IMG/VR virus record: IMGVR_UViG_3300021400_004213 | Origin: an uncultured virus (IMG/VR IMGVR_UViG_3300021400_004213) | Lineage: Duplodnaviria > Heunggongvirae > Uroviricota > Caudoviricetes | Strand: one strand, 5' to 3' | Length of the DNA: 26,175 nucleotides | Shown here: piece after piece, positions 1-26,175 of the stretch | How the letters are laid out: each line of letters opens with the position of its first letter | Position numbering within the stretch: position 1 is the stretch's first letter | Position numbers and translations under genes: made by a program | The notes under the pieces: generated by a model | Told to the model about the DNA's origin: nothing | Databases searched by the model: none | What the model saw: the letters and a program-made list of their open reading frames with translations, nothing else

Positions 1-487
1 CATCGAAGTTCGGAACCCAATCTACAGTGTTCTTATCAATGTCACGAAGCATTTCATCGGCAATCTTTGACATACGAGCTTCCGTATAACGGTAAGCAGC
101 AGGCGGATCGCCATCCATAGAACCAAAGTTACCATGTCCATCTACGAGCGGATGCCTCAGGTTGAAATCCTGTGCCAAACGAACCAGCGCATCATACACA
201 CTGGCATCACCATGCGGATGGTAATGCCCAAGCACGTCACCAACAGTGGTTGCGCACTTACGATACGCAGCAGAATGGGTGATACCAGCCTTATACATTG
301 CGTACATAATACGACGATGAACAGGCTTAAATCCATCACGCACATCAGGCAAAGCACGGTCTGTAATGACAGACATGGCATAGTCAATGAAGTTACGACC
401 CATAATATCAGGCAAACACACCTGTTCATAATGTGGATCATCTTCATTAATATCAAAAAATGTATTCAAATTCTTTTCATTATCCAT
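1..487 (-). CDS. gyrA: DNA gyrase/topoisomerase IIA subunit A, N-terminal part (runs off the window)
   Basis: Not in the ORF track; translated by hand from ATG 487 with RBS AGGAGAG overlapping the gyrB stop. Sequence MDNEK...[30 protein letters not shown]...[20 protein letters not shown]...[23 protein letters not shown] includes the catalytic Tyr. The GyrA-box lies outside the window, so parC is not excluded. Confidence 0.93.
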
Positions 488-499
488 ATCTGACTCTCC

Positions 500-2446
500 T
501 TAAGCATCAACATTTGCCAGATGAGCATTATCTTCGATATAACGTCTACGAGGCAATACCGAATCACCCATCAAAGTTACGACCAAATCTTCCGTCTCTT
601 CAGCACGAATATCATCAAAATATACAGCTCTCATAATACGACGGTTAGGATCCATTGTGGTCTCCCAAAGCTGCTCTGGGTTCATCTCACCAAGGCCCTT
701 ATAACGCTGAATATTATCCTTACCCTTTGCAGGACCAAGCTTCTTCAAAAGAGCATCCAATTCTTCGTCCGTATAGGCATAATATTCCTTCTTACCTCTC
801 GTCAGCTTATACAACGGAGGTTTAGCCACAAAAATATGACCCTGTTTAATCAACTCAGGCATATAACGATAGAAGAAAGTCAGAAGCAGAATCGCAATAT
901 GACTACCGTCAACATCGGCATCTGCCATAATCACAATCTTACCATAGCGAAGCTTGTTGATATCAAAATCATTACCAACGCCAGTGCCAAGTGCGGCAAT
1001 AACAGGCTGAAGCTTATCGTTATTGTAAACCTTACTCGGCTGAACACGCTCGACGTTCAGCATCTTACCCCAAAGAGGAAGAATAGCTTGGAACTTACGA
1101 TCACGACCCAACTTTGCACTACCACCTGCGGAATCACCCTCAACAATAAACAACTCAGTTTCATCCACATTCTTAGACTGACAATCTGCCAGCTTACCAG
1201 GTAATGTACTATTGGCCTCCATCGCAGTCTTACGACGAGTATTCTCACGAGCCTGACGGGCAGCATCTCTCGCCTGCTGAGCCAAAACAGCCTTCTCGCA
1301 AATCGCTCGACCGACATCAGGATGGAGTTCCAGATAAACTGTCAACTGCTCGCCCATAATGGTCTCAACGATACCACGAACTTCAGCATTACCAAGTTTC
1401 TGCTTCGTCTGACCCTCAAACTCAGGCTCCATAACACGACAAGAAACAACTGCAGAAAGACCTTCCTTCAAGTCCTCTGTGGACAAAGACATATCTTTCT
1501 TCTTAAACAGATTGTTATTCTTCGCATAGTTATTCAAGATACGCGTCATTGCAGCCCTAAAGCCTGTAATATGCGTACCACCTTCAGGTGTATGAATATT
1601 GTTGACATAGCCAAGCAAACGTTCCGAATAATCCTTTGTATGCTGAAAAGCAACTTCGACCTTCGTATCACCCTTCTCACCAGAAAGAACGATAATATCG
1701 TCATACATTGGCTCTCTACCCTTGTTCAAGAACTCAATATAACTGATAAGACCATTCTCCGAAGAAAACGTCTCAGTCCGCTCCTTACCTTCACGTTCAT
1801 CTGTCAACACAAGCGTTAAGCCCTTCGTAAGGAAAGAAACCTCACGCATACGTTCCTTCAATGTATCGTAGTCATATTCTGACACACTAAAAATCGATGG
1901 ATCAGGCAGGAAAGTAACTTTCGTTCCATGATCATTCACATCGGCAGTGCCGACACGACCAAATGGAACCGTTATCTTACCCTTGGAAAATTCCATTCCC
2001 CAAATCGCATCATCACCCTCACGGGTGACTTCAACACGAAACATAATAGACAGGGCATTAACAACAGATGCACCAACACCATGCAAACCGCCAGCACCCT
2101 TATATCCACCACCGCCGAACTTACCACCAGCATGAAGCTTCGTAAGTACGACTTCCAGAGCAGACTGACCCGTCTGCGGATGGATATCCACAGGAATACC
2201 ACGACCATCGTCTTTGACAGTGATCGAGTTATCAGGATGAATCGTCACATCAATATGATGACAGTAACCTGCCATCGCTTCGTCAACACCATTATCCAAA
2301 ATCTCATAAACAAGATGATGGAAACCACGCTCAGAAGTCGATCCAATATACATACCAGGACGACGACGAACAGCTTCCAAACCTTCTAAGATTTGGATAT
2401 TCTCTGCATTATAATTCTCATGAATCTTAGCGGGAATATCATTCAT
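500..2446 (-). CDS. gyrB: DNA gyrase/topoisomerase IIA subunit B (648 aa, Gram-positive length)
   Basis: Motifs LEAVRRRPGMYIG, EILDNGVDE, DDGRGIP, LHAGGKF, GLHGVG, EGDSAGG, DADVDG and QRYKGLGEMNPEQLWETTM; RBS AAGGAG. Confidence 0.95.
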   Translation of the reverse strand: MNDIPAKIHENYNAENIQILEGLEAVRRRPGMYIGSTSERGFHHLVYEILDNGVDEAMAGYCHHIDVTIHPDNSITVKDDGRGIPVDIHPQTGQSALEVVLTKLHAGGKFGGGGYKGAGGLHGVGASVVNALSIMFRVEVTREGDDAIWGMEFSKGKITVPFGRVGTADVNDHGTKVTFLPDPSIFSVSEYDYDTLKERMREVSFLTKGLTLVLTDEREGKERTETFSSENGLISYIEFLNKGREPMYDDIIVLSGEKGDTKVEVAFQHTKDYSERLLGYVNNIHTPEGGTHITGFRAAMTRILNNYAKNNNLFKKKDMSLSTEDLKEGLSAVVSCRVMEPEFEGQTKQKLGNAEVRGIVETIMGEQLTVYLELHPDVGRAICEKAVLAQQARDAARQARENTRRKTAMEANSTLPGKLADCQSKNVDETELFIVEGDSAGGSAKLGRDRKFQAILPLWGKMLNVERVQPSKVYNNDKLQPVIAALGTGVGNDFDINKLRYGKIVIMADADVDGSHIAILLLTFFYRYMPELIKQGHIFVAKPPLYKLTRGKKEYYAYTDEELDALLKKLGPAKGKDNIQRYKGLGEMNPEQLWETTMDPNRRIMRAVYFDDIRAEETEDLVVTLMGDSVLPRRRYIEDNAHLANVDA

Positions 2447-9648: not shown

Positions 9649-10941
9649 TTACAGTACCTCAACTAAAGAAAACAGCACAATCGAAACATTTTGCCAATTT
9701 CCGTTACACGTATACATAGCAATGTCGTCACTACCGTGATCCCAGACATTAATTCCATTCCAATCATACACATCATAGCCATCATTCGTGCCGCCGCCTA
9801 CATAATAACAGGAATACACATATGTATTCCCACCATGACGGATAAATGCCTTTGTGCCAGAGCCACAACTACGAATACCAGAAAAACCTTGATTCGTATG
9901 ATCGCCAATAAATGGCGTAGCACCCCAACCCGTCATATACACAGCAGAATCATCCGCGTCAACAACAGCCTGCGCATCTACATTATCATAATAACCAATC
10001 TGATATAGAGCTACATTAATCCCAACATCAGGAATATACAAACGACCATAACCGCCATAATTATCACAAAGAGATGTGGTAACACCATTATGGATATATG
10101 TATCAGACGAATACCATTCAGAGCACAAAGTGCCAGAACCAGTATAATATTTACCATCTTCTACTGTATCCATGGCATAACCACCATCTTTATATAAATA
10201 ATAAGTAGCATCATCAGAAGATACATACGTTTCTCCTGTTTGTTGCACACCATTATCATCAAAATAATACACTATATCATTGATTGTCTGCCAACCAGTG
10301 ACCAACAGACCATCGTCATTCAAGTAATAACGAACGTCACCAGATGTCAGCCAGCCAGTCCACATATGACCATCTTCAATAGAAAAATAATAAAGACCAT
10401 CCTCCGTTTCCAACCAATCTGTTACCATATGACCATCGGCATCGAAATAATACTTCTTGCCGTGATCTTCTACCCAACCTTTAGATAAACCACTGCTTCT
10501 ATCGAAATAGTAGGTTGAATCATCTAAAAATAAAAACCCAACATGCTGCGCACCAGTCTGGTCAAAATAAAAGGTTTTATCGTCTACATCGACAAAACCA
10601 ATCTGCATAATACCCGACGAATTAAAAAAATATTTTATGCCATCTTTTTCTAACCATCCAACAGTTGCTTTACCATTCTCATCTAAAAAATAACGATTAC
10701 CATCTAAGTCAAACCAACCCACACAAGGATTCGAATCCACATCATAAAAGTACGTTCCATCATCACTTTCAGATAACCCTTCAATACCGCCATCAAAATT
10801 TAATGTAATTTCATACACATTCGCTTTAACAGGCTTTATATCTGCCCCATCAACATCAAATGTCATGGCTGGAACCATAGAAATTTGATTGGCGGACACA
10901 AAAAGAAACATGATAATCGAAACTATCACTTTCAAAAACAT
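9649..10941 (-). CDS. Secreted protein with ~8 cell-wall/choline-binding repeats and a C-terminal sortase-like domain
   Basis: Signal peptide; ~20-aa GW/F-x5-(R/K)YYF-x3-G repeats; C-terminal GRLYIPDVGINVAL...FIGDH...MYTC. Confidence 0.75.
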   Translation of the reverse strand: MFLKVIVSIIMFLFVSANQISMVPAMTFDVDGADIKPVKANVYEITLNFDGGIEGLSESDDGTYFYDVDSNPCVGWFDLDGNRYFLDENGKATVGWLEKDGIKYFFNSSGIMQIGFVDVDDKTFYFDQTGAQHVGFLFLDDSTYYFDRSSGLSKGWVEDHGKKYYFDADGHMVTDWLETEDGLYYFSIEDGHMWTGWLTSGDVRYYLNDDGLLVTGWQTINDIVYYFDDNGVQQTGETYVSSDDATYYLYKDGGYAMDTVEDGKYYTGSGTLCSEWYSSDTYIHNGVTTSLCDNYGGYGRLYIPDVGINVALYQIGYYDNVDAQAVVDADDSAVYMTGWGATPFIGDHTNQGFSGIRSCGSGTKAFIRHGGNTYVYSCYYVGGGTNDGYDVYDWNGINVWDHGSDDIAMYTCNGNWQNVSIVLFSLVEVL

Positions 10942-18606: not shown

Positions 18607-19134
18607 TTATTGAATAATCCTTACAAACGCCGTAGGCGTCATACAATACATATCTGCAATAAGCGTATCACTATCTGGGTTGGCTACATGAACAATCTGT
18701 CCGTCACCGATATAGATTCCACAATGCTCACCCCAGTTATACGCCACGATATCTCCTGGCTCTAATTCGTTCTCCGAGATGTTCCCCATCGCTTGAAACT
18801 CACTCGCTGTACGAGGGACACTCATTCCATACGTTTCGTAAATCAAATGTACGAATCCCGAACAATCCGTTCCTGTCTCCAGTGAATTTCCGCCATACAC
18901 ATATGGCAAGTCACCTGCAAAGGAACACGCATAATCCACTAACTTTTCTCTCAGTTCATTACATTCCTTCTGCTATTCTTCCAATCGCTTCAAGTGCATC
19001 TCATGAATCTTGATGCACAATTCATCTTTGTCAAGCAAATCAAACGGTGTTGCATAAACAGGAAGTACCGAACAACCGATGACCATAGTCATACAAAAAA
19101 CAAAAACAACCAACTTAATGACAATCTTTTTCAT
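18607..19134 (-). pseudogene. Secreted NlpC/P60 (C40) peptidase with an in-frame TAG at codon 54 (pseudogene or read-through)
   Basis: ATG 19134 (RBS GAAAGG) gives MKKIVIKLVVFVFCMTMVIGCSVLPVYA...KRLEE*QKECNELREKLVDYA, in frame with PYVYGG, DCSGFV, PRTA, HCGIYIG and VHVA. The TAG is at 18975..18973. Confidence 0.8.
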
Positions 19135-20125: not shown

Positions 20126-22720
20126 TCAATTCTGATCTTCTACATACCAGTAAACGTTATCCGAAATTGGCATTCCATTCTCATTACTAAATGTAATCTC
20201 AAATGTAAACGTATCGTCCTTGTTCGATTCAGTAAGCTCAGACCCATCCTTAGTGATCTTCAAAACACCTGGACGAGTATGATTATCAAACGCAACACCA
20301 TCTTCATCATAGGTAACGTCAGCAGTTAAAGCACCTTCAACAGGTAAATCAGCCGTTACCGTCATATAATAACCATAATTGACCATATCTGTCCAATTAT
20401 TATTTGTTGTTGGATAAGCATAACTATTATACAATACACTTAATGAATCGCCGTCAACATCAAATTCATCTGTCAAATACTCTTGGTCTTTTCCATTTAT
20501 ATAATAATACTGCTTCAAGGCTGTATTTGGATTAAAATCAGCACCATATGTCTGCGTACGCACTTCCTCATGTGCACCTTGCCAAATATAAAACTGACCT
20601 CTCGGATTCGTATACTTTACAGTCACATGTAACTTATCGGCACCAGGAATCGTAATAACATCCGTATAATACGTACTGCTTGAGTAATCATACTTCTTTA
20701 CGCCATTATCCAAAATATTACTCGAATGAGATACAACATTGACACTCTCCACATCACCAGCCAATTGACCAACAAGAACCTTGACTGTTTCCTCATGTGT
20801 ATCATAATCAATGCTATTATCCTGCGGATCTATCTCACGAATAATATATGTATGCGCTCCAAGATCAGCTTTTGTATATTCAATCGGATCAAACTGGATG
20901 AAACCGCCATCCACAACAAATTTCGTTTGAATTACATTGCGATTCTCATCAAGTAATTCAAATTGATAAGTACCTAACTTAGCTGGATGACCATCTAACT
21001 TTTTCGTTCCAGTAAACTGAACCGTTACAATATCAGGCTGATACTTGTTCCAAAACGATACAGCAGACTCTTCCAACGCCTCAATGACACCTGAAGCATT
21101 TTCTTGTTGAACAATCACCCATCCGTCAGGCGTAAGTTCATAGACTTGGTATGACGTTCCTGCTGGAATGTCATTAAATGTCGCCTTTTCACCAGCCCTG
21201 ATATCGAAGGTAAAGCTACCATCCTCCATATTTACAGAAAAATCGGTTCTTCTCCAAACAGCATTCAATTTGATATGAACATCCTTTGTACCAATATCAT
21301 TAGGCCCACTATAATGATACCAATAAAGCCTGCCGCCATCAGAAATCGTCTTATAAGACGATACTCCAGAACCATTGTCAACCGAAGGATCTAAAGCCCA
21401 ATGGTCAAACTCATAACCAGGTTTTACATAAGTGTTCGCAGGCAAATCAATACTATAATAATTTCCAGCATTATATTCAGGAACACCTTTTTCTACATGA
21501 ATCTCTGGCATCGAACCCGTAACACCAGCACCGCCGTCAAAAGACACATGAACATTAAATGTATCAACGGTATACTCCCACGTACCAGCTAACGATTCTG
21601 GATCATTATAATACGCCCTCGTTAATGCACGATAATCATTCTTATTCCAACTTGATGCATACGCTTCTGTATTTGCTTCTACATTGCGCCAACCAAATAC
21701 GGTATAAGAATCATTAACGATATAGTTTGAACTAGCAGGCTCATCAAGTCCAACTCGACAATCATAATATGGCGGCAAACCGAACCTGAAATTTGGTCCA
21801 ATCACAAATTTCTTCAAATGATACTTATAACTACTATAATTATAAGTATGTGCATATAGCATTGAACTAAATTGATCAGGATTTGTCATACCACGCATGT
21901 CAAAATTACGAACATCAATAAACTCAATGGGCGACCAAGAAAGCATGCACATACAACTCTGTAAACTTGGCGTATAAAAACTTGATAGATCTAATTCATG
22001 CATACTCGCCATAGAAGCAAACATATAATCCATATTTGTAACATTACGAGTATCAAAATTAGATACATCCAACATAGTTAATTTTTCACAATCATAAAAC
22101 ATCCAAGACATATCTGTGACTTGATTTGTATTAAAACTCGACAAATCAAGCGATTGCAAATTTTGACACTGCCTAAACATGTCCTTCATTGTTCGCACAC
22201 TACGAGTATCAAAACTTGATAAAGTCAAAGATTCTAAGGCATAACAATAACGGAACATAGCCTCCATCGATGTGACATTTCTCACATCAAAACTTGATAA
22301 ATCAAGAGATGTCAACTTAGAACAATTCTCAAACATAAAATTCATATTTGTAACACGCTGTGTATCAAATCCTGTTGCATCAAATGATTCCAAATTAGAT
22401 AAATATTCAAACATTCTTGACATATCGCCTTGTCCGTGAACAATACCGTCAAATCGGACAGATTTCACCTGATAACCATATCCAGAACACCAAACAGGAC
22501 TTGAATTACGATTACTCCTATACGTAAACGTCTGTTCAGTACCATCGCCTATAATCAATTCATAATCAGACGTAATACGCCAATCGACGCCATCGTATAC
22601 ACCCCCATCAAGGTCACCTTCTTGCTTGGCAGCATGTACCGTCTTCGCAGGCACCATTGCAAGCATTACAGCCACTATCATGGCGATGCAAAGCAATATA
22701 CCTTTCATTCCTTTCTTCAT
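20126..22720 (-). CDS. Secreted BspA/DUF285-type LRR surface protein with pilin-like Ig domains, paralog 1 (864 aa, no LPXTG or TM anchor)
   Basis: Start moved to ATG 22720 after GGAGG. Signal peptide (VHA); 7 x 26-aa MF..C..L..LDLS.FDT..VT repeats; Listeria-Bacteroides/InlB-B-like repeat; Spy0128/FctA-like domain (FTGTKKLDG...YIIREI...FDN). Confidence 0.88.
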   Translation of the reverse strand: MKKGMKGILLCIAMIVAVMLAMVPAKTVHAAKQEGDLDGGVYDGVDWRITSDYELIIGDGTEQTFTYRSNRNSSPVWCSGYGYQVKSVRFDGIVHGQGDMSRMFEYLSNLESFDATGFDTQRVTNMNFMFENCSKLTSLDLSSFDVRNVTSMEAMFRYCYALESLTLSSFDTRSVRTMKDMFRQCQNLQSLDLSSFNTNQVTDMSWMFYDCEKLTMLDVSNFDTRNVTNMDYMFASMASMHELDLSSFYTPSLQSCMCMLSWSPIEFIDVRNFDMRGMTNPDQFSSMLYAHTYNYSSYKYHLKKFVIGPNFRFGLPPYYDCRVGLDEPASSNYIVNDSYTVFGWRNVEANTEAYASSWNKNDYRALTRAYYNDPESLAGTWEYTVDTFNVHVSFDGGAGVTGSMPEIHVEKGVPEYNAGNYYSIDLPANTYVKPGYEFDHWALDPSVDNGSGVSSYKTISDGGRLYWYHYSGPNDIGTKDVHIKLNAVWRRTDFSVNMEDGSFTFDIRAGEKATFNDIPAGTSYQVYELTPDGWVIVQQENASGVIEALEESAVSFWNKYQPDIVTVQFTGTKKLDGHPAKLGTYQFELLDENRNVIQTKFVVDGGFIQFDPIEYTKADLGAHTYIIREIDPQDNSIDYDTHEETVKVLVGQLAGDVESVNVVSHSSNILDNGVKKYDYSSSTYYTDVITIPGADKLHVTVKYTNPRGQFYIWQGAHEEVRTQTYGADFNPNTALKQYYYINGKDQEYLTDEFDVDGDSLSVLYNSYAYPTTNNNWTDMVNYGYYMTVTADLPVEGALTADVTYDEDGVAFDNHTRPGVLKITKDGSELTESNKDDTFTFEITFSNENGMPISDNVYWYVEDQN

Positions 22721-22922
22721 ACTGAAATACCTCCATGATTCTTTATATATTCTTACATAAAGAAACGCCTCGATAATAAATGCAAGGCTATTCAACCTCG
22801 CATCTTCCTATCAAGGCGACGTCTATTATGACTTTTACGTGCTCAAAAAATAAGCACATATCGACCAATTCTTACTCAATTCTTTACTCTCATAATATAC
22901 TTGAATTATCAGTCTTTTTCAA
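22721..22922 (-). promoter_or_regulatory. Promoter plus structured 5' leader, copy 1
   Basis: TTGAAA-17-TATATT (22922..22894); small hairpin 22839..22857; 53-nt hairpin 22766..22818 followed by TTTCTTT; paralogous to 25600..25795. Confidence 0.75.
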
Positions 22923-22932
22923 GACACTTATC

Positions 22933-25599
22933 TTAATTCTCGACGTACCAATAAATATCATCACTGATCGGCATTCCATTCTCATTACTAAATGTAATTT
23001 CGAACGTAAACGTATCGTCCTTGTTCGCTTCGGTCACATTGGCATTCTTCGTAATACGGAGAATACCTGGACGAGTCTTGTTCTCAAACTTAATACCGTC
23101 TTCATCATAAGTAACTTCGCTACTCAACCTATTGCTACCAGCAGAAATATAAAATCCATAATTCGAATACTCTTTATATATCGGAATTGTGGATGGATAT
23201 GCATACGAACAATATAATACAGTAATCGTATCACCTGGAACATCCAATTCCTCAGTAATTAGCATATTATCTTTATCATTATTATATGAATATGCCTTAT
23301 ACGCAGTATTTGGATTTAAAGCCTCCGTATAACCAGAAATGCTTCCATTCGAATTTGCTGAAAGATTTGCAATCTCAACACTATGATCACCTTGCCAAAT
23401 ATAAAACGAACCACGTACATTCGAATAATTCATATTCAAATGCAACGACTCAGCACCAGATTTACTTAATACACCTGTATAAAGTTCATAACTTCCATAA
23501 TCATGCAGTTTATTTCCATCATCATCAATATTTGGCGAATGAACACACACTTTTGAATCAGCTACCGATACACGTACATGAACAACTTCTTCATGACTAT
23601 CATAGTCAATGCTATCATCTTGTGGATCAATCTCTCTCACAAAATACGTATGCTCACCAACATCAGCTTTTGTATATTCAATCGGATCAAACTGAACAAA
23701 TCCACCATCCAATACAGTCTTTGTCTGAAGTACATTCCTGTTTTCATCAAGAAGTTCAAACATATATGTTCCTTCTTTCGCAGGATGTCCATCTAACAAC
23801 TTTGTGCCTGTAAACTGAGTTGTTACAACATCAGGCTGATACTTGTTCCAAAATGTGGCTGCCGATTCTTCAAGAGCCTCGATCACGCCAGAAGCGTTCT
23901 CTTGCTGTACAAGCACCCATCCGTCAGGTGTAAGTTCATATACTTGATATGTCGTTCCTGCGGGAATATCCTTGAATGTAGCTTTCTCACCAGCTTTAAT
24001 GCTGAATTCAAAAGCACCTTCATTCATACTTATATTATGATTATCTTTTTCAAACATAGCTGTTAATGTAACGGTAGAACCTTCATCATAAATACCTGCA
24101 GGAATCGTACCGTTATTCTCATACTGATGCCCCTGTCCATCATCCCAATAAACAAATGAATGATCGAAAATATAATATTCACAAGACGGTAGTACAAATT
24201 CTTCCCCATATACAGCATATGAACTCTTCATAGATCCAGCAGCACCATCAGCAACATAATTTATATTATAGCCAGGTACTTTTTCCCAAACCCATGTTCC
24301 TTCAATTGAATCAGTATCATTTAAGCTAAGCAATTCACTTGCGTACAGAGCGCCTTCTTTTTCACCTTCCAAAATCCATTTTCCTGTATATGGATATTTA
24401 GAAGAGGCATTTGGAATATCACCCCAATAATGATACCTAGCAATATTATTACCCTTGTAATAATAATTCGGACCAAAAACTATCTTTTTCAAATTATTAC
24501 AATACGCAAACATGCCATGTAAATCAGTACAACGATGCGTATTAAAGTTCTGAATGTTAATAGATTCAAGAGACTCACAATGCGCAAAAATTTGACCAAG
24601 ATTCTGCGCACTTGAAGTAACCCAATTCGAAACATCTAATTCTTCTAAACTTAAACAATCCTCAAACACACTATCCAAACGTGTCACATGACTCACATCA
24701 AATGACGATACGTCAACACTCTTTAAACTTTTACAACCCCTAAACATGTGTTGCATTGTTGTTACACGATCGGTATGCCAATCAGATAAATCTAAAGTCT
24801 TAAGACTCGCACAACCATCAAATACACCGCTCATATCTGTAACAAGACTCACATCTAACCCAGAAACATTAGCAGATTCCAAACTAGTACAACCACGAAA
24901 CATCCGTCTAATATTCGTTAATTGACCAGCATTTAATGTAGATAAATCAACAGAAACCAAACTACTACAGTATTCAAAAACTTCCGCTAAACTCGTAACC
25001 TTTGGTACACGAAAACTAGATAAATCCACAGAACGTAAGGAACTACAATAACGAAACATATCGCCCATATAACGAACATTAGTGGTAACAAAATTGCTCA
25101 AATCAAGATCTATAAGATTTTCGCACATATAAAACATGTCAAGTAAACTTGTAACATTACTCGTATCAAAATTAGAAAGATCCAAATGTTGTAAACTAGA
25201 ACAACGACTAAACATATAAGACATCGTTGTTGCTCTAGAAGTATCTAAATTACGGAGATCCATCTCTGTACAATTGACCATATTTGCAAATAAAGAATAA
25301 CACCCCGCAGCAGTATTTACACCTGGCAATACCTTAACTTTTTTCACTGATTCCGCATAAGCACTCCATGAAGGAGATGCAGAAACGTAAGAATCAAGAA
25401 TGCCAATAAAGCCGTCCGTAGGAGGACTAATCGTCAATACACCATCCGCATCAATAACCCAGGAACAAGTACCTGATGTTCCTGACGCAATATCATCATC
25501 AGCGGCTTTCACTACATTCACGCCAAATATGGTAAACAAACCAGCACACAGCACAAATGCCAACAACAAGCCTAATATGCCTTTCATTCCTTTCTTCAT
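22933..25599 (-). CDS. Secreted BspA/DUF285-type LRR surface protein with pilin-like Ig domains, paralog 2 (888 aa, no LPXTG or TM anchor)
   Basis: Signal peptide (VKA); SGTSGTCSW..D.DGVLTI cap; 10 full plus 1 partial 26-aa LRRs; same downstream architecture and YWYVE end as paralog 1. Confidence 0.9.
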   Translation of the reverse strand: MKKGMKGILGLLLAFVLCAGLFTIFGVNVVKAADDDIASGTSGTCSWVIDADGVLTISPPTDGFIGILDSYVSASPSWSAYAESVKKVKVLPGVNTAAGCYSLFANMVNCTEMDLRNLDTSRATTMSYMFSRCSSLQHLDLSNFDTSNVTSLLDMFYMCENLIDLDLSNFVTTNVRYMGDMFRYCSSLRSVDLSSFRVPKVTSLAEVFEYCSSLVSVDLSTLNAGQLTNIRRMFRGCTSLESANVSGLDVSLVTDMSGVFDGCASLKTLDLSDWHTDRVTTMQHMFRGCKSLKSVDVSSFDVSHVTRLDSVFEDCLSLEELDVSNWVTSSAQNLGQIFAHCESLESINIQNFNTHRCTDLHGMFAYCNNLKKIVFGPNYYYKGNNIARYHYWGDIPNASSKYPYTGKWILEGEKEGALYASELLSLNDTDSIEGTWVWEKVPGYNINYVADGAAGSMKSSYAVYGEEFVLPSCEYYIFDHSFVYWDDGQGHQYENNGTIPAGIYDEGSTVTLTAMFEKDNHNISMNEGAFEFSIKAGEKATFKDIPAGTTYQVYELTPDGWVLVQQENASGVIEALEESAATFWNKYQPDVVTTQFTGTKLLDGHPAKEGTYMFELLDENRNVLQTKTVLDGGFVQFDPIEYTKADVGEHTYFVREIDPQDDSIDYDSHEEVVHVRVSVADSKVCVHSPNIDDDGNKLHDYGSYELYTGVLSKSGAESLHLNMNYSNVRGSFYIWQGDHSVEIANLSANSNGSISGYTEALNPNTAYKAYSYNNDKDNMLITEELDVPGDTITVLYCSYAYPSTIPIYKEYSNYGFYISAGSNRLSSEVTYDEDGIKFENKTRPGILRITKNANVTEANKDDTFTFEITFSNENGMPISDDIYWYVEN

Positions 25600-25795
25600 A
25601 TTGAAATACCTCCATAACTCTTTATATTTTTACATAAAGAAACGCCCCGATAAGAAATACAAGGCTATTCAACCTCACATCTTCCTATCAGGGCGACGTC
25701 TCTTTAACTCTTAAATATCCTTATGGATATAATCGACCATTCATTTATTCAATTCTTTACTCTCATAATATACCTGAATTATCAGTATTTTTCAA
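25600..25795 (-). promoter_or_regulatory. Promoter plus structured 5' leader, copy 2
   Basis: TTGAAA-17-TATATT (25795..25767); small hairpin 25715..25730; 53-nt hairpin 25643..25695 followed by TTTCTTT. Confidence 0.75.
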
Positions 25796-25839
25796 GATTC
25801 GAAAGCATTTTATTTCTAGTCTGAACCACTTTGCCATCA

Positions 25840-25880
25840 GAAAAGCACCCCAGTCGGCTCTTGCCTTCTGGAGTGCTTTC
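25840..25880 (-). terminator. Intrinsic terminator of the LPXTG gene / candidate sRNA
   Basis: AAAGCACTCCAG...CTGGGGTGCTTTT. Confidence 0.7.
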
Positions 25881-25945
25881 CTTTTGTCTGGAGGGATTTC
25901 TATGAAGAAATTCATATGTTACTCAGTAAGCAAAACTTACTGGAA
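25840..25945 (-). ncRNA. Candidate 3'UTR-derived antisense sRNA targeting the RBS/AUG of both LRR genes
   Basis: 5' hairpin CAGTAAG/CTTACTG (25924..25942); seed UUUCUUCAUAGAAAUCCCUCCA (25910..25889); terminator. Confidence 0.5.
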
Positions 25946-25965
25946 TAACCAATTCATTACGAGGA

Positions 25966-26175
25966 TTATTCATCCTCATCGTCATCCTTCTTCTTACGCA
26001 GCAAGAAGAATAATCCACCTGCAATAACCACAACACCGACAATTGTAAGTACAATCGCAGTTGTGCTACCAGTAGCAGGAAGTGTCACTGTTGCCTTGTT
26101 CGTGAATGTCAGATCCAAATTATCTGCATCCACCAGTTCTGCTTTCAGAATACCATCTTTGGTATCTGTGACTCG
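25966..26175 (-). CDS. C-terminus of a sortase-anchored (LPXTG) surface protein, partial
   Basis: Hand translation: ...KDGILKAELVDADNLDLTFTNKATVT-LPATG-STTAIVLTIVGVVVIAGGLFFLL-RKKKDDDEDE*. Confidence 0.9.
   Translation of the reverse strand, partial: RVTDTKDGILKAELVDADNLDLTFTNKATVTLPATGSTTAIVLTIVGVVVIAGGLFFLLRKKKDDDEDE

What the first reader, a model, noticed from the sequence alone, without database searches (positions are those of the whole stretch)
20126..26175. Anchorless adhesins with a split, order-swapped CnaB-like domain: possible natural tag/catcher system for head-to-tail covalent fibres
Seen: both paralogs contain an internal segment, G(S/A)F(T/E)FxI(R/K)AGEKATFxDIPAGT(S/T)YQVYELTPDGW...SGVI...FWNKY (21041..21223; 23839..24021). 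It follows the B-repeat directly, with no preceding LxIxK strand. Both proteins end with PGxL(K/R)ITK...KDDTFTFEITFSNENGMPISDxxYWYVE (20129..20270; 22936..23067). These segments are among the best conserved between the paralogs, both proteins stop at almost the same residue, and neither has an LPXTG, TM or SLH anchor. Known: CnaB-type Ig repeats of Gram-positive surface proteins run LxIxK...FxFxI...GxFxLxxGE...P.GxxYxVxE...FxN and form an autocatalytic Lys-Asn isopeptide via the Glu; SpyTag/SpyCatcher is an engineered split of such a domain. Inference: here the C-half (Glu of VYE, Asn of FWN) precedes the N-half (Lys of ITK), separated by a whole Spy0128-like domain on very short linkers. The tail of one subunit could therefore complete the internal half-domain of the next, building a chain of interchangeable LRR adhesins without a pilin sortase. 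The upstream LPATG protein ends in GxL...LTFTN, which resembles the end of a C-half, so it could be the wall-anchored base.
Basis: partly seen in the sequence, partly recalled or inferred. Interest (0 to 1): 0.88.

Follow-up and report, generated by a model that had tools for sequence, protein, structure and literature searches.

The report
Giant adhesin split into snap-together pieces
Two secreted adhesin genes of a gut bacterium look like pieces of a giant surface protein cut inside a self-crosslinking domain, so they probably click back together on a wall-anchored partner, which would be a natural version of the engineered SpyTag/SpyCatcher trick.

Summary
Both genes (20126-22720 and 22933-25599, minus strand) encode signal peptide, PARCEL/DUF285 LRR head, the C-terminal half of a DUF7601 isopeptide domain (Glu, Asn), a complete FctA domain, then the N-terminal half of DUF7601 (Lys) and a stop.

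Relatives explain it. Giant proteins of 3,500-6,500 aa carry the same elements in one chain. There the LRR head is an insertion in the mid-loop of a DUF7601 domain. The window genes are one period of such a giant, cut at that loop, each with its own signal peptide.

In fused relatives the unit-type tail is followed by a base-type C-half, never clearly by a unit-type one. The upstream LPATG protein (P0051) starts its stalk with exactly that base-type half, orphaned.

Best reading (about 0.6): separately secreted pieces reassemble in trans in the order tip, unit, wall-anchored base, locked by a Lys-Asn isopeptide. An open homopolymer fibre and cis closure are not supported but not excluded. AF2 does not close the monomer's split domain, yet folds the same halves well when contiguous.

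No complex prediction was available and no biochemistry exists. No published natural split CnaB system turned up.

The parts
25966..26175 (-). 3' end of the upstream 'base' gene: last FctA strand, LPATG, TM segment and basic tail. The full-length product is taken to be P0051 (1154 aa), which carries an orphan base-type DUF7601 C-half at residues 559-624.
   Evidence: One search gives the ORF. One search shows P0051 is 100% identical over these 69 residues and is listed without a source, as the window's own proteins are. Searches give the domain map and the Gram_pos_anchor hit.
22933..25599 (-). Unit gene 2 (P0002, 888 aa): signal peptide, PARCEL/DUF285 LRR head, weak B-repeat-like segment, DUF7601 C-half, FctA with insert, DUF7601 N-half tail, stop.
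23836..24030 (-). P0002 DUF7601 C-half (residues 524-588); Glu555 (23935-23937), Asn585 (23845-23847).
23074..23829 (-). P0002 FctA isopeptide domain (Lys600, Glu656, Asn840), interrupted by the ~137-aa CUB-like insert at 23128-23538.
22936..23073 (-). P0002 tail: DUF7601 N-half (residues 843-888) with Lys851 (23047-23049). The stop follows YWYVEN.
20126..22720 (-). Unit gene 1 (P0001, residues 26-889 of the listed ORF): same architecture with a different LRR head.
   Evidence: One search supports the ATG at 22720 by the GGAGG RBS and the leader shared with the paralog.
21038..21232 (-). P0001 DUF7601 C-half (residues 522-586); Glu553 (21137-21139), Asn583 (21047-21049).
20276..21031 (-). P0001 FctA isopeptide domain (Lys598, Glu654, Asn838), interrupted by the ~132-aa CUB-like insert at 20330-20725.
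20129..20275 (-). P0001 tail: DUF7601 N-half (residues 841-889) with Lys849 (20249-20251). The stop follows YWYVEDQN.
22721..22932 (-). Leader of unit gene 1: promoter-like TTGAAA-17-TATATT (22922-22894), ~170-nt conserved leader, GGAGG RBS.
   Evidence: consensus match only, not above shuffles
25600..25800 (-). Leader of unit gene 2, homologous to that of unit gene 1 (promoter-like site 25795-25767).

Best explanation
The two genes encode exchangeable middle modules ('units') of a fibrillar adhesin that in other Bacillota is one giant polypeptide.

In the giants the stalk is an alternation of DUF7601 and FctA isopeptide domains, the two domains of Spy0128-type pilins. LRR heads are inserted in the mid-loop (between the third and fourth strands) of two successive DUF7601 domains.

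In this lineage the gene has been cut at those loops, and each piece has its own signal peptide. Three piece types result:
- A tip piece ends in a tip-type N-half.
- A unit has head, unit-type C-half, FctA and unit-type N-half.
- A base has head, base-type C-half, more stalk and LPXTG.

Inferred mechanism: after Sec export, the unit's 49-residue tail (three strands, Lys849 or Lys851) inserts into the orphan base-type C-half of the sortase-anchored upstream protein (P0051 residues 559-624; Glu590, Asn621). This rebuilds a complete DUF7601 sandwich, and the Lys-Asn isopeptide forms autocatalytically and fixes the unit to the wall-bound base. The unit's own orphan C-half would likewise accept a tip-type tail. 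No tip gene lies in this window.

The two units (six on a related contig) would be alternative heads competing for the same base.

Shown: the split architecture, the fused homologues, the type-specific order, retention of the triad, and the separate signal peptides. Inferred: physical complementation, bond formation and partner specificity.
For: 1. The split is clean: DUF7601 profile 50-116 lies internally and 2-45 at the C-terminus.

2. Rosetta-stone evidence.
- The 18 genome-contig loci and several metagenome loci (all 29 listed fused ORFs are over 1,600 aa; full-length ones 3,500-6,500 aa) show N-half, a 400-1,600-aa insert, C-half, FctA, N-half, insert, C-half and so on.
- The inserts are DUF285 LRR plus Flg_new, the same head as in the units.

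3. Type-specific pairing, using my own typing by alignment score to six reference segments.
- A unit-type N-half is followed by a base-type C-half in 21 of 21 locus ORFs where a C-half follows: 20 with an insert and 1 contiguous.
- Among 189 proteins, 48 have a C-half after a unit-type N-half: 38 base-type, 9 untyped and 1 marginally unit-type (P0151, scores 71 and 124).
- A tip-type N-half lies upstream of the unit-type C-half in 57 of 57 long proteins.
- A base-type C-half with at least 1,500 aa upstream is preceded by an N-half in 64 of 66 cases.

4. All three piece types exist as separate genes.
- Base: P0051 and P0052 have an orphan base-type C-half and LPATG. Eight proteins have this half as their first half-element.
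- Tip: the L021 protein of 2,584 aa and the L024 ORF end in a tip-type tail.
- In L024 the gene order is tip, unit, then an LRR-head gene, with gaps of 4 and 38 nt, collinear with the giants.

5. Orphan halves keep the triad: Lys in 141 of 141 N-half hits, Glu in 181 of 181 C-half hits, Asn in 172 of 181 (the other 9 are truncated envelopes) (redundant set).

6. The units are real secreted proteins.
- 38 of 44 unit-type proteins have a signal-peptide-like N-terminus by a crude rule; the other 6 look N-terminally truncated.
- 34 of the 50 proteins in hand stop within about 25 residues of the third strand, and none of those has an LPXTG-like motif.

7. The tail-ending state arose more than once: parsimony gives 7 changes and strongly supported branches force at least 2. 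The window's units sit in an all-tail clade of 26 rows (quick tree).

8. AF2.
- In the P0001 stalk alone (34-sequence alignment) the tail has no DSSP strands (pLDDT 66-82) and the C-half has only 2 strands (pLDDT 52-76); pTM is 0.54.
- In a natural relative where a unit-type N-half is contiguous with a base-type C-half (L032), the same pipeline with 25 sequences gives a nine-strand sandwich at pLDDT 89-98.
- Together with the preceding FctA, that domain aligns to whole Spy0128 (3b2m_A, Z 12.1, 219 residues, rmsd 7.5).

9. Engineered splits of either Spy0128 domain do react in trans (passages of PMC5487036).
Against: - There is no direct evidence of binding or bond formation.
- No tip gene is in the window and the genome is not held, so the unit's own C-half has no identified partner here.
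- Gene order here (base, unit, unit) is not collinear with the giants.
- Unit paralogs outnumber known bases (2:1 here, 6:1 on a related contig), which would also fit polymerisation.
- The consensus core patterns of tip-type and unit-type N-halves, and of unit-type and base-type C-halves, are similar. Cross-reaction therefore cannot be excluded, and the proposed specificity rests on orthology alone.
- Exposed half-sandwiches outside a Gram-positive cell with no evident chaperone might aggregate or be degraded.
- Covariation between halves did not discriminate partners.
- Some relatives (P0008, P0010, P0011, P0014) carry the N-half internally, followed by other domains rather than a stop. A terminal tail is therefore not obligatory.
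Confidence: 0.6

Rival explanations
1. Open head-to-tail homopolymer or heteropolymer. The tail of one unit completes the C-half of the next unit, giving a covalent fibre of LRR adhesins growing from the LPATG base.
For: - Every unit carries both a donor half and an acceptor half.
- Units are multi-copy and outnumber bases: 2 here, and 6 on the 284-kb contig that also holds P0052.
- The core patterns of the different half types are similar, so cross-fitting is conceivable.
- The stalk parts of the paralogs are far better conserved than the heads.
Against: - No fused relative has two units in a row.
- A unit-type N-half followed by a unit-type C-half occurs in 0 of 21 locus ORFs.
- Among the 48 of 189 proteins where a C-half follows, there is 1 marginal case against 38 base-type.
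- The unit-type C-half always has a tip-type N-half as its upstream partner in long proteins (57 of 57).
Confidence: 0.13
2. Cis closure (circular permutation). Within one molecule the tail folds back onto the internal C-half, making a closed, soluble, secreted LRR protein with no covalent partner.
For: - Both halves are in one chain with short linkers to the FctA domain.
- The AF2 tail has moderate pLDDT (66-82), so it is not predicted as fully disordered.
Against: - It leaves the orphan C-half of the LPATG bases and the orphan tail of the tip proteins unexplained.
- In fused relatives the two halves of a unit belong to two different domains.
- AF2 builds no strands in the tail and only two in the C-half of the monomer (pTM 0.54). 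It folds the same half types well when they are contiguous in canonical order.
- In the monomer model the tail aligns roughly where the N-half of the Spy0128 C domain lies, beyond the FctA domain (3gld and 3gle, Z 8.9 and 8.5, rmsd 7.2 and 7.9). This is weak evidence.
Confidence: 0.1
3. No reassembly. The fission products work as independent secreted or anchored LRR proteins, and the half-domains are tolerated remnants or have another role such as a folding, retention or degradation signal.
For: - No binding data exist.
- Some relatives have the N-half followed by unrelated domains.
- The orphan unit-type C-half in the control model is still predicted with pLDDT 80-87 and 4 strands without a partner.
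Against: - Lys, Glu and Asn are retained in all orphan halves examined.
- The tail is among the best conserved parts across about 35 clusters at 90% identity and across a deep all-tail clade.
- Fission recurs at the same loop.
Confidence: 0.1

Closest known systems
Spy0128 / T-antigen backbone pilins of Streptococcus pyogenes (FctA N domain plus DUF7601-type C domain; PDB 3B2M, 6N0A, 6BBT)
   Same: - The same two domain families, each with a Lys-Glu-Asn isopeptide triad.
- A profile of the family hits T-antigens at E 1.7e-25 to 1.3e-13.
- The FctA part of the unit model matches FctB at Z 13.4 and Spy0128 at Z 8.6.
- The fused relative's FctA plus DUF7601 matches whole Spy0128 at Z 12.1.
- DUF7601 is predicted to carry Lys190, Glu263 and Asn305 in a T-antigen (table passage of PMC12617251).
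   Different: - Pilins are joined by a pilin-specific sortase through LPXTG and a pilin-motif lysine, and each domain is contiguous.
- The units have no sorting signal, and no sortase gene is in the window.
- One DUF7601 domain is divided between two proteins.
- Large LRR heads sit in the domain's mid-loop.
Engineered split isopeptide systems: split Spy0128 domains (Zakeri and Howarth 2010), SpyTag/SpyCatcher, SnoopTag/SnoopCatcher
   Same: - A CnaB-type domain is divided so that the reactive Lys is on one partner and Asn (or Asp) plus the catalytic Glu on the other. The partners dock by strand complementation and ligate spontaneously.
- As in SnoopTag, the Lys is on the N-terminal-strand piece.
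- The first such systems were cut from Spy0128 itself (passages of PMC5487036, and PMC6539128).
   Different: - Those are man-made, with a single-strand tag of 12-16 residues.
- Here the split is natural, lies at mid-domain (three strands against four or more), recurs in evolution, and comes in at least two sequence types that would act as orthogonal pairs.
- Reactivity is untested.
Donor-strand complementation fibres: chaperone-usher pili, type V pili, TasA, and archaeal threads (Saci_0406)
   Same: - An incomplete beta-sandwich of one subunit is completed by strands of the next.
- In archaeal threads, complementation is combined with an apparent intermolecular isopeptide bond (passages of PMC9715654).
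   Different: - There is no homology to these systems.
- They donate one strand and mostly bind non-covalently, with chaperone/usher or protease help.
- The thread bond is Asn to the N-terminal amine, between subunits n and n+2.
- Here three strands are donated, the bond would be the canonical intradomain Lys-Asn, and the assembly appears finite and ordered.
Giant LRR-decorated fibrillar adhesins of rumen and gut Bacillota (unnamed; loci L001-L018, L026-L034; P0054-P0189)
   Same: Direct homologues: the same tip, unit and base segments, heads, CUB-like insert and anchors, in one polypeptide.
   Different: They are fused. The window's version is cut into separately secreted genes.
Earlier notes of this scan on split DUF11/CLIPPER isopeptide-domain operons in Gram-negatives (e1-3039127, e1-5233982)
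   Same: The same idea: an adhesin cut inside a self-crosslinking Ig domain, with pieces proposed to clip together. These are unchecked AI notes.
   Different: A different domain family (CnaA-like DUF11), Gram-negative hosts, a different cut position, and an outer-membrane barrel as anchor.

Membership tests
DUF7601 (PF24547), CnaB-type isopeptide domain | Match to the family HMM above the gathering score | tested here: met
   P0001 scores 52.7 bits and P0002 60.1 bits against a cutoff of 27.
DUF7601 (PF24547), CnaB-type isopeptide domain | One contiguous domain covering the profile from first to last strand | tested here: not met
   Profile 50-116 lies at residues 522-585. Profile 2-45 lies at the C-terminus, about 255 residues later.
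DUF7601 (PF24547), CnaB-type isopeptide domain | Lys (first strand), catalytic Glu and Asn (last strand) conserved | tested here: met
   K849, E553 and N583 are invariant in A1. Lys is present in 141 of 141 hits, Glu in 181 of 181, and Asn in 172 of 181.
DUF7601 (PF24547), CnaB-type isopeptide domain | The isopeptide bond actually forms | not testable with these tools
   This needs mass spectrometry or a structure.
FctA (PF12892) / TIGR03786 streptococcal pilin isopeptide linkage domain | HMM match, fold and triad | tested here: met
   HMM scores are 38.3 and 39.5 bits against 22.1. TIGR03786 scores 36.4 bits against 31.85 for P0001, but 28.4 for P0002, which is below the cutoff. The model matches FctB at Z 13.4 and 5ttd at rmsd 2.1 over 108 residues. 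K598, E654 and N838 are invariant.
Sortase-assembled backbone pilin | C-terminal LPXTG sorting signal | tested here: not met
   The units end YWYVEDQN and YWYVEN, with no Gram_pos_anchor hit. Only the upstream base has LPATG.
Sortase-assembled backbone pilin | Pilin-specific sortase gene in the locus | tested here: not met
   None of the 23 other ORFs of the window hits a sortase family at E <= 1e-3. The rest of the genome is not held.
Natural Tag/Catcher-like split domain (trans complementation) | Donor and acceptor halves on different polypeptides, with fused homologues showing which halves make one domain | tested here: met
   A contiguous domain of unit-type N-half plus base-type C-half occurs in L032 and L017 and folds at pLDDT 89-98.
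Natural Tag/Catcher-like split domain (trans complementation) | The halves bind and ligate in trans | not testable with these tools
No biochemistry exists.
Circularly permuted CnaB domain (cis) | The two halves of one chain form one sandwich | tested here: inconclusive
   The AF2 monomer has no strands in the tail and 2 in the C-half, with pTM 0.54. No coordinates were available to inspect.

The most novel reading that the evidence does not exclude
These gut Bacillota run a natural, sortase-independent Tag/Catcher system with at least two orthogonal split-domain pairs: tip-type N-half with unit-type C-half, and unit-type N-half with base-type C-half. Separately secreted modules ligate autocatalytically, in a fixed order, onto a wall-anchored base. 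A cell can then mix and match LRR heads from a library of unit genes on one stalk. The split has evolved repeatedly from giant single-chain adhesins.
Probability: 0.5. Interest if true: 0.9.

Novelty: new variant of a known kind. Interest (0 to 1): 0.8.

Why it matters
If the pieces ligate in trans, this would be the first natural counterpart in Gram-positive bacteria of the engineered isopeptide Tag/Catcher tools. It would also be a third route for covalent surface display, beside sortase anchoring and sortase pilus polymerisation.

It would explain how anchorless BspA/PARCEL-type LRR proteins, which are common in gut and rumen Clostridia, stay on the cell. It would show how giant adhesins of 4,000-6,500 aa can be delivered in parts and diversified by swapping heads.

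It would also supply ready-made, evolution-tested and possibly orthogonal ligation pairs for protein engineering.

The claim is directly testable with two recombinant fragments and an SDS gel.

Tried and rejected
No support or refutation from it exists.
A planned fold of full-length P0051 (alignment A3) was dropped in favour of the smaller L032 control.
- The whole genome is not held, and the metagenome loci are not in held records. The genes upstream of the LPATG gene, and any tip gene of this organism, could not be read.
- The 100%-identical metagenome copy L019 ends about 530 nt upstream of unit gene 2.
- Covariation (APC-corrected mutual information) was run on 51 non-identical fused proteins. 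The mean of the top ten was 0.222 for unit N-half against base C-half, 0.207 against unit C-half, and 0.198 for the two C-halves against each other. There was no discrimination.
- The careful ML tree did not finish in three runs, so only the quick tree is used.
- A single-sequence search of PDB sequences gave only chance hits (E 0.38 or worse). The profile search was informative.
- ESM Atlas gave no hit above 0.77 and holds no model.
- Rfam found nothing in 22600-26175.
- No RNA holder was listed for the stretch. The contigs laid show that the best holder covers it without differences in the listed pieces, but that run may be the source sample.
- Five literature searches found no description of a naturally split CnaB or isopeptide domain used for trans assembly. 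Subscription papers outside the library were not searched.
- Pseudogene or assembly artefact was considered and rejected, because the units have their own signal peptides, promoter-like leaders and RBS, and many independent metagenomes show the same stop position.

Full report
WHAT IS THERE

The last 6 kb of the window carry three genes on the minus strand:
- the 3' end of an LPATG-anchored protein (25966-26175);
- P0002 (22933-25599, 888 aa);
- P0001 (ORF 20126-22795).

P0001's real start is the ATG at 22720. It sits behind a GGAGG RBS in a leader that is nearly identical upstream of both genes.

Both products begin with a Sec-type signal peptide and a PARCEL/DUF285 LRR head (TIGR02167 E 4e-51 and 6.9e-64; PF03382). 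The stalk follows. Pfam puts DUF7601 profile positions 50-116 of 116 on residues 522-585 (P0001). It puts a complete FctA domain after it, and DUF7601 positions 2-45 on the last 50 residues. The proteins stop 3 and 1 residues after YWYVE, and neither has an anchor.

The corrections are minor:
- The segment before the half-domain is only a sub-threshold B-repeat in these two proteins.
- The FctA domain carries a ~130-aa insert.

In a 34-sequence alignment both triads are invariant: K598/E654/N838 for FctA, and K849 (tail), E553 and N583 (internal half) for the split DUF7601.

THE FAMILY

A search with the stalk found 48 relatives. With the two window proteins that makes 50. Of these, 34 end within about 25 residues of the third N-half strand. 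None of the 34 has an LPXTG-like motif. The odd ending is thus a conserved feature and not a truncation.

A full scan of 1.84 billion cluster representatives gave 2,353 hits at E <= 1e-3 and 495 at E <= 1e-30. Many of them are proteins of 3,000-8,000 aa.

THE KEY RESULT: FUSED RELATIVES

All 18 relatives in species-representative genomes, and several in metagenomes, are giant proteins. They come from rumen and gut MAGs labelled Lachnospiraceae, Erysipelotrichaceae, Oscillospiraceae and Peptostreptococcaceae, plus one labelled Coriobacteriales. HMMs built from the window-type halves show a repeated order in them: N-half, a gap of 400-1,600 aa, C-half, FctA, N-half, gap, C-half, FctA and so on. 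The series starts with an N-half and ends with a C-half.

The gaps are DUF285 LRR plus Flg_new repeats, which is the same head as in the window proteins. In the giants, then, a DUF7601 domain is contiguous in fold but carries a whole adhesive head in its mid-loop. The window genes correspond to one period of this pattern, cut at the junction between N-half and head.

TYPING THE HALVES

I classed each half by local alignment score against six reference segments taken from P0001, P0051 and the L021 tip protein. This is an ad hoc rule: score at least 70 and a margin of at least 20.

Every giant has the same three successive segments:
- a tip segment ending in a tip-type N-half;
- head 1, unit-type C-half, FctA, unit-type N-half;
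- head 2, base-type C-half, FctA, further DUF7601/FctA domains and an anchor.

The counts are as follows.
- In locus ORFs, a unit-type N-half is followed by a base-type C-half in 21 of 21 cases where any C-half follows: 20 with an insert and 1 contiguous. It is never followed by a unit-type C-half.
- Among 189 proteins, 48 have a C-half after a unit-type N-half: 38 base-type, 9 untyped and 1 unit-type. The single exception, P0151, has marginal scores of 71 and 124 and looks like a generic stalk domain.
- With a tip-specific HMM, a tip-type N-half lies upstream of the unit-type C-half in 57 of 57 long proteins.
- A base-type C-half with at least 1,500 aa upstream is preceded by an N-half in 64 of 66 cases.
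- In L032 and L017 the unit-type N-half and the base-type C-half are directly contiguous, forming an ordinary DUF7601 domain.

THE UPSTREAM LPATG PROTEIN

The 69 residues in the window match a 1,154-aa protein, P0051, at 100%. It is listed without a source, as the window's own proteins are. I take it to be the full-length product.

P0051 has a signal peptide, a small DUF285 head and a Flg_new repeat. Directly after these comes an orphan base-type C-half (residues 559-624; DUF5979 profile 34-103 of 104; Glu590 and Asn621 conserved). Then follow FctA, a complete DUF7601 (766-874), two FctA domains and LPATG. It has no N-half tail.

P0052 has the same stalk with a larger head. It lies on the 284-kb contig that also carries six unit paralogs. 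In all, eight proteins have a base-type C-half as their first half-element.

The terminal LTFTN is simply the last strand of a complete FctA domain.

TIP PIECES

In L021 a unit gene is followed by a 2,584-aa protein. This protein equals the N-terminal part of the giants and ends in a tip-type N-half plus a short low-complexity end. An LRR-head gene follows it.

In L024 the order is tip-type ORF, unit, then LRR-head gene, with gaps of 4 and 38 nt. That is collinear with the giants.

Other cut patterns also exist:
- tip plus unit in one protein ending in the unit tail (P0170);
- unit plus base in one anchored protein with an orphan unit-type C-half (P0028, L032).

On a quick ML tree of 107 stalk segments the tail-ending state needs 7 changes by parsimony. 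At least 2 are forced by well-supported branches. The window's units lie in an all-tail clade of 26 rows (SH-aLRT 92). The careful search did not finish.

Orphan halves keep the catalytic residues: Lys 141 of 141, Glu 181 of 181, Asn 172 of 181, with the other nine being truncated matches (redundant set). Of 44 unit-type proteins, 38 have a signal-peptide-like start by a crude rule, and the other six look truncated.

STRUCTURE PREDICTION

AF2 on the P0001 stalk (residues 515-889, 34 sequences) gave mean pLDDT 79.3 and pTM 0.54.
- The FctA domain and its insert are well formed (pLDDT mostly 82-97).
- The internal C-half shows only two DSSP strands (pLDDT 52-76).
- The tail shows none (pLDDT 66-82).

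As a control I folded a natural relative, L032 residues 295-750 (25 sequences). It contains an orphan unit-type C-half, FctA, a contiguous unit-type N-half plus base-type C-half, and FctA. It gave mean pLDDT 91.0 and pTM 0.72.
- The contiguous domain has nine strand segments at pLDDT 89-98, including three clear strands in the N-half.
- The orphan C-half has 4 strands at pLDDT 80-87.

So the pipeline folds these half types when they are in canonical order, but it does not close the unit's two halves in cis.

The control's FctA plus DUF7601 aligns to whole Spy0128 (3b2m_A, Z 12.1, 219 residues, rmsd 7.5). Its three domains align to a tandem T-antigen (8f70, 323 residues, rmsd 10.6). In the monomer model the tail aligns roughly with the first part of the Spy0128 C domain (3gld and 3gle, Z 8.9 and 8.5, rmsd 7.2 and 7.9).

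This is moderate evidence against cis closure.

INTERPRETATION

Established:
- The split architecture.
- Its origin by fission of a giant adhesin at the head-insertion loop.
- The existence of tip, unit and base genes.
- The type-specific order in fused forms.
- The retention of the triad.

Inferred: the pieces reassemble after export. The unit tail would complete the base-type orphan half of the wall-anchored P0051. A tip tail would complete the unit's own half. Each junction would be locked by the domain's own Lys-Asn bond.

The inference is of the Rosetta-stone kind. It is strengthened by the fact that engineered cuts of either Spy0128 domain ligate in trans (passages of PMC5487036) and that the Lys-on-tag arrangement works in SnoopTag (passages of PMC6539128).

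I put trans reassembly of some kind at about 0.7, and the ordered tip-unit-base version at about 0.6. The rivals are an open unit-on-unit fibre (0.13), cis closure (0.1) and no reassembly (0.1).

Weak points:
- There is no binding evidence.
- There is no tip gene in view for this organism.
- Gene order here is not collinear with the giants.
- Units outnumber bases.
- The core patterns of the half types are similar.
- Covariation was uninformative.
- No chaperone is evident for exposed half-sandwiches.

COMPARISON WITH WHAT IS KNOWN

By sequence and fold the stalk belongs with Spy0128-type pilins. DUF7601 is listed as a predicted CnaB-like isopeptide domain of a T-antigen (table passage of PMC12617251).

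It is not a sortase-assembled pilin. The units lack a sorting signal and no sortase gene is in the window.

It would work like donor-strand complementation fibres. Among those it is most like archaeal threads, where complementation is combined with an apparent intermolecular isopeptide (passages of PMC9715654). It would also work like the engineered Tag/Catcher pairs.

Five full-text searches found no natural split CnaB system. Two earlier, unchecked notes of this scan describe an analogous split of DUF11 domains in Gram-negative operons.

SURROUNDINGS

The rest of the window holds:
- gyrA and gyrB fragments at its start;
- a choline-binding-repeat protein with endolysin-like matches;
- an NlpC/P60 protein;
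- phosphoesterases;
- many ORFs without family hits.

There is no sortase and no further DUF7601 half.

VERDICT

This is a natural, recurrent split of an isopeptide domain that most likely serves modular covalent assembly of an adhesin on a wall-anchored base. Interest is high (0.8), and a simple gel assay can test it.

Noticed in passing
window 20330-20725 and 23128-23538 (minus strand): The ~130-aa insert inside the FctA domain has no Pfam hit. It folds confidently in AF2, and its best PDB matches are CUB domains (Kremen 5fwt, Z 8.9, rmsd 2.8 over 99 residues; C1s CUB1 1nzi, Z 8.6). In many giants the same module sits in the mid-loop of the next DUF7601 domain, and it occurs near the N-terminus of other proteins. 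It may be a second binding module.
   Followed up: partly
window 22721-22932 and 25600-25800 (minus strand): Both unit genes have a nearly identical ~230-nt upstream region: promoter-like TTGAAA-17-TATATT, a ~170-nt leader and a GGAGG RBS. There is no Rfam match. Contig depth over 25562-25767 is 150-185 in two other metagenome runs, against roughly 0-57 in the other bins, so the leader is multi-copy there. It could be a regulatory leader or a cassette boundary for recombination between unit genes.
   Followed up: partly
L020:1776-3488 and L020:3617-5320 (same genes at L023:9019-10731 and L023:10860-12563): Two ordinary LPXTG backbone-pilin genes (GramPos_pilinBB plus SpaA, 571 and 568 aa) lie between unit genes on a related contig. 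Sortase pili and the split adhesin genes are therefore neighbours there.
   Followed up: no
P0008, P0010, P0011, P0014 (relatives, 1,373-1,548 aa): In these proteins the unit-type N-half is not terminal. It is followed by a linker and further domains (Cna_B, a second LRR head or an unknown C-terminal domain) but no C-half. The cut can therefore lie on the far side of the next head.
   Followed up: partly
L001 (contig JBMNUM010000015.1): One giant homologue sits in a MAG labelled Coriobacteriales (Actinomycetota), among otherwise Bacillota relatives. It nests within them on the quick tree. This may reflect transfer or a binning error.
   Followed up: no
window 9649-10941 (minus strand) and 18607-18939 (minus strand): A 430-aa choline-binding-repeat protein has endolysin-like PHROG matches. 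A 110-aa NlpC/P60 protein resembles phage tail lysins. Both lie among many ORFs without family hits. The adhesin genes may sit next to, or within, a mobile or prophage-derived region.
   Followed up: partly
window 2-2446 (minus strand): gyrB (complete) and the 5' part of gyrA lie at the window's start. They could be used to place the organism taxonomically, which was not done here.
   Followed up: no
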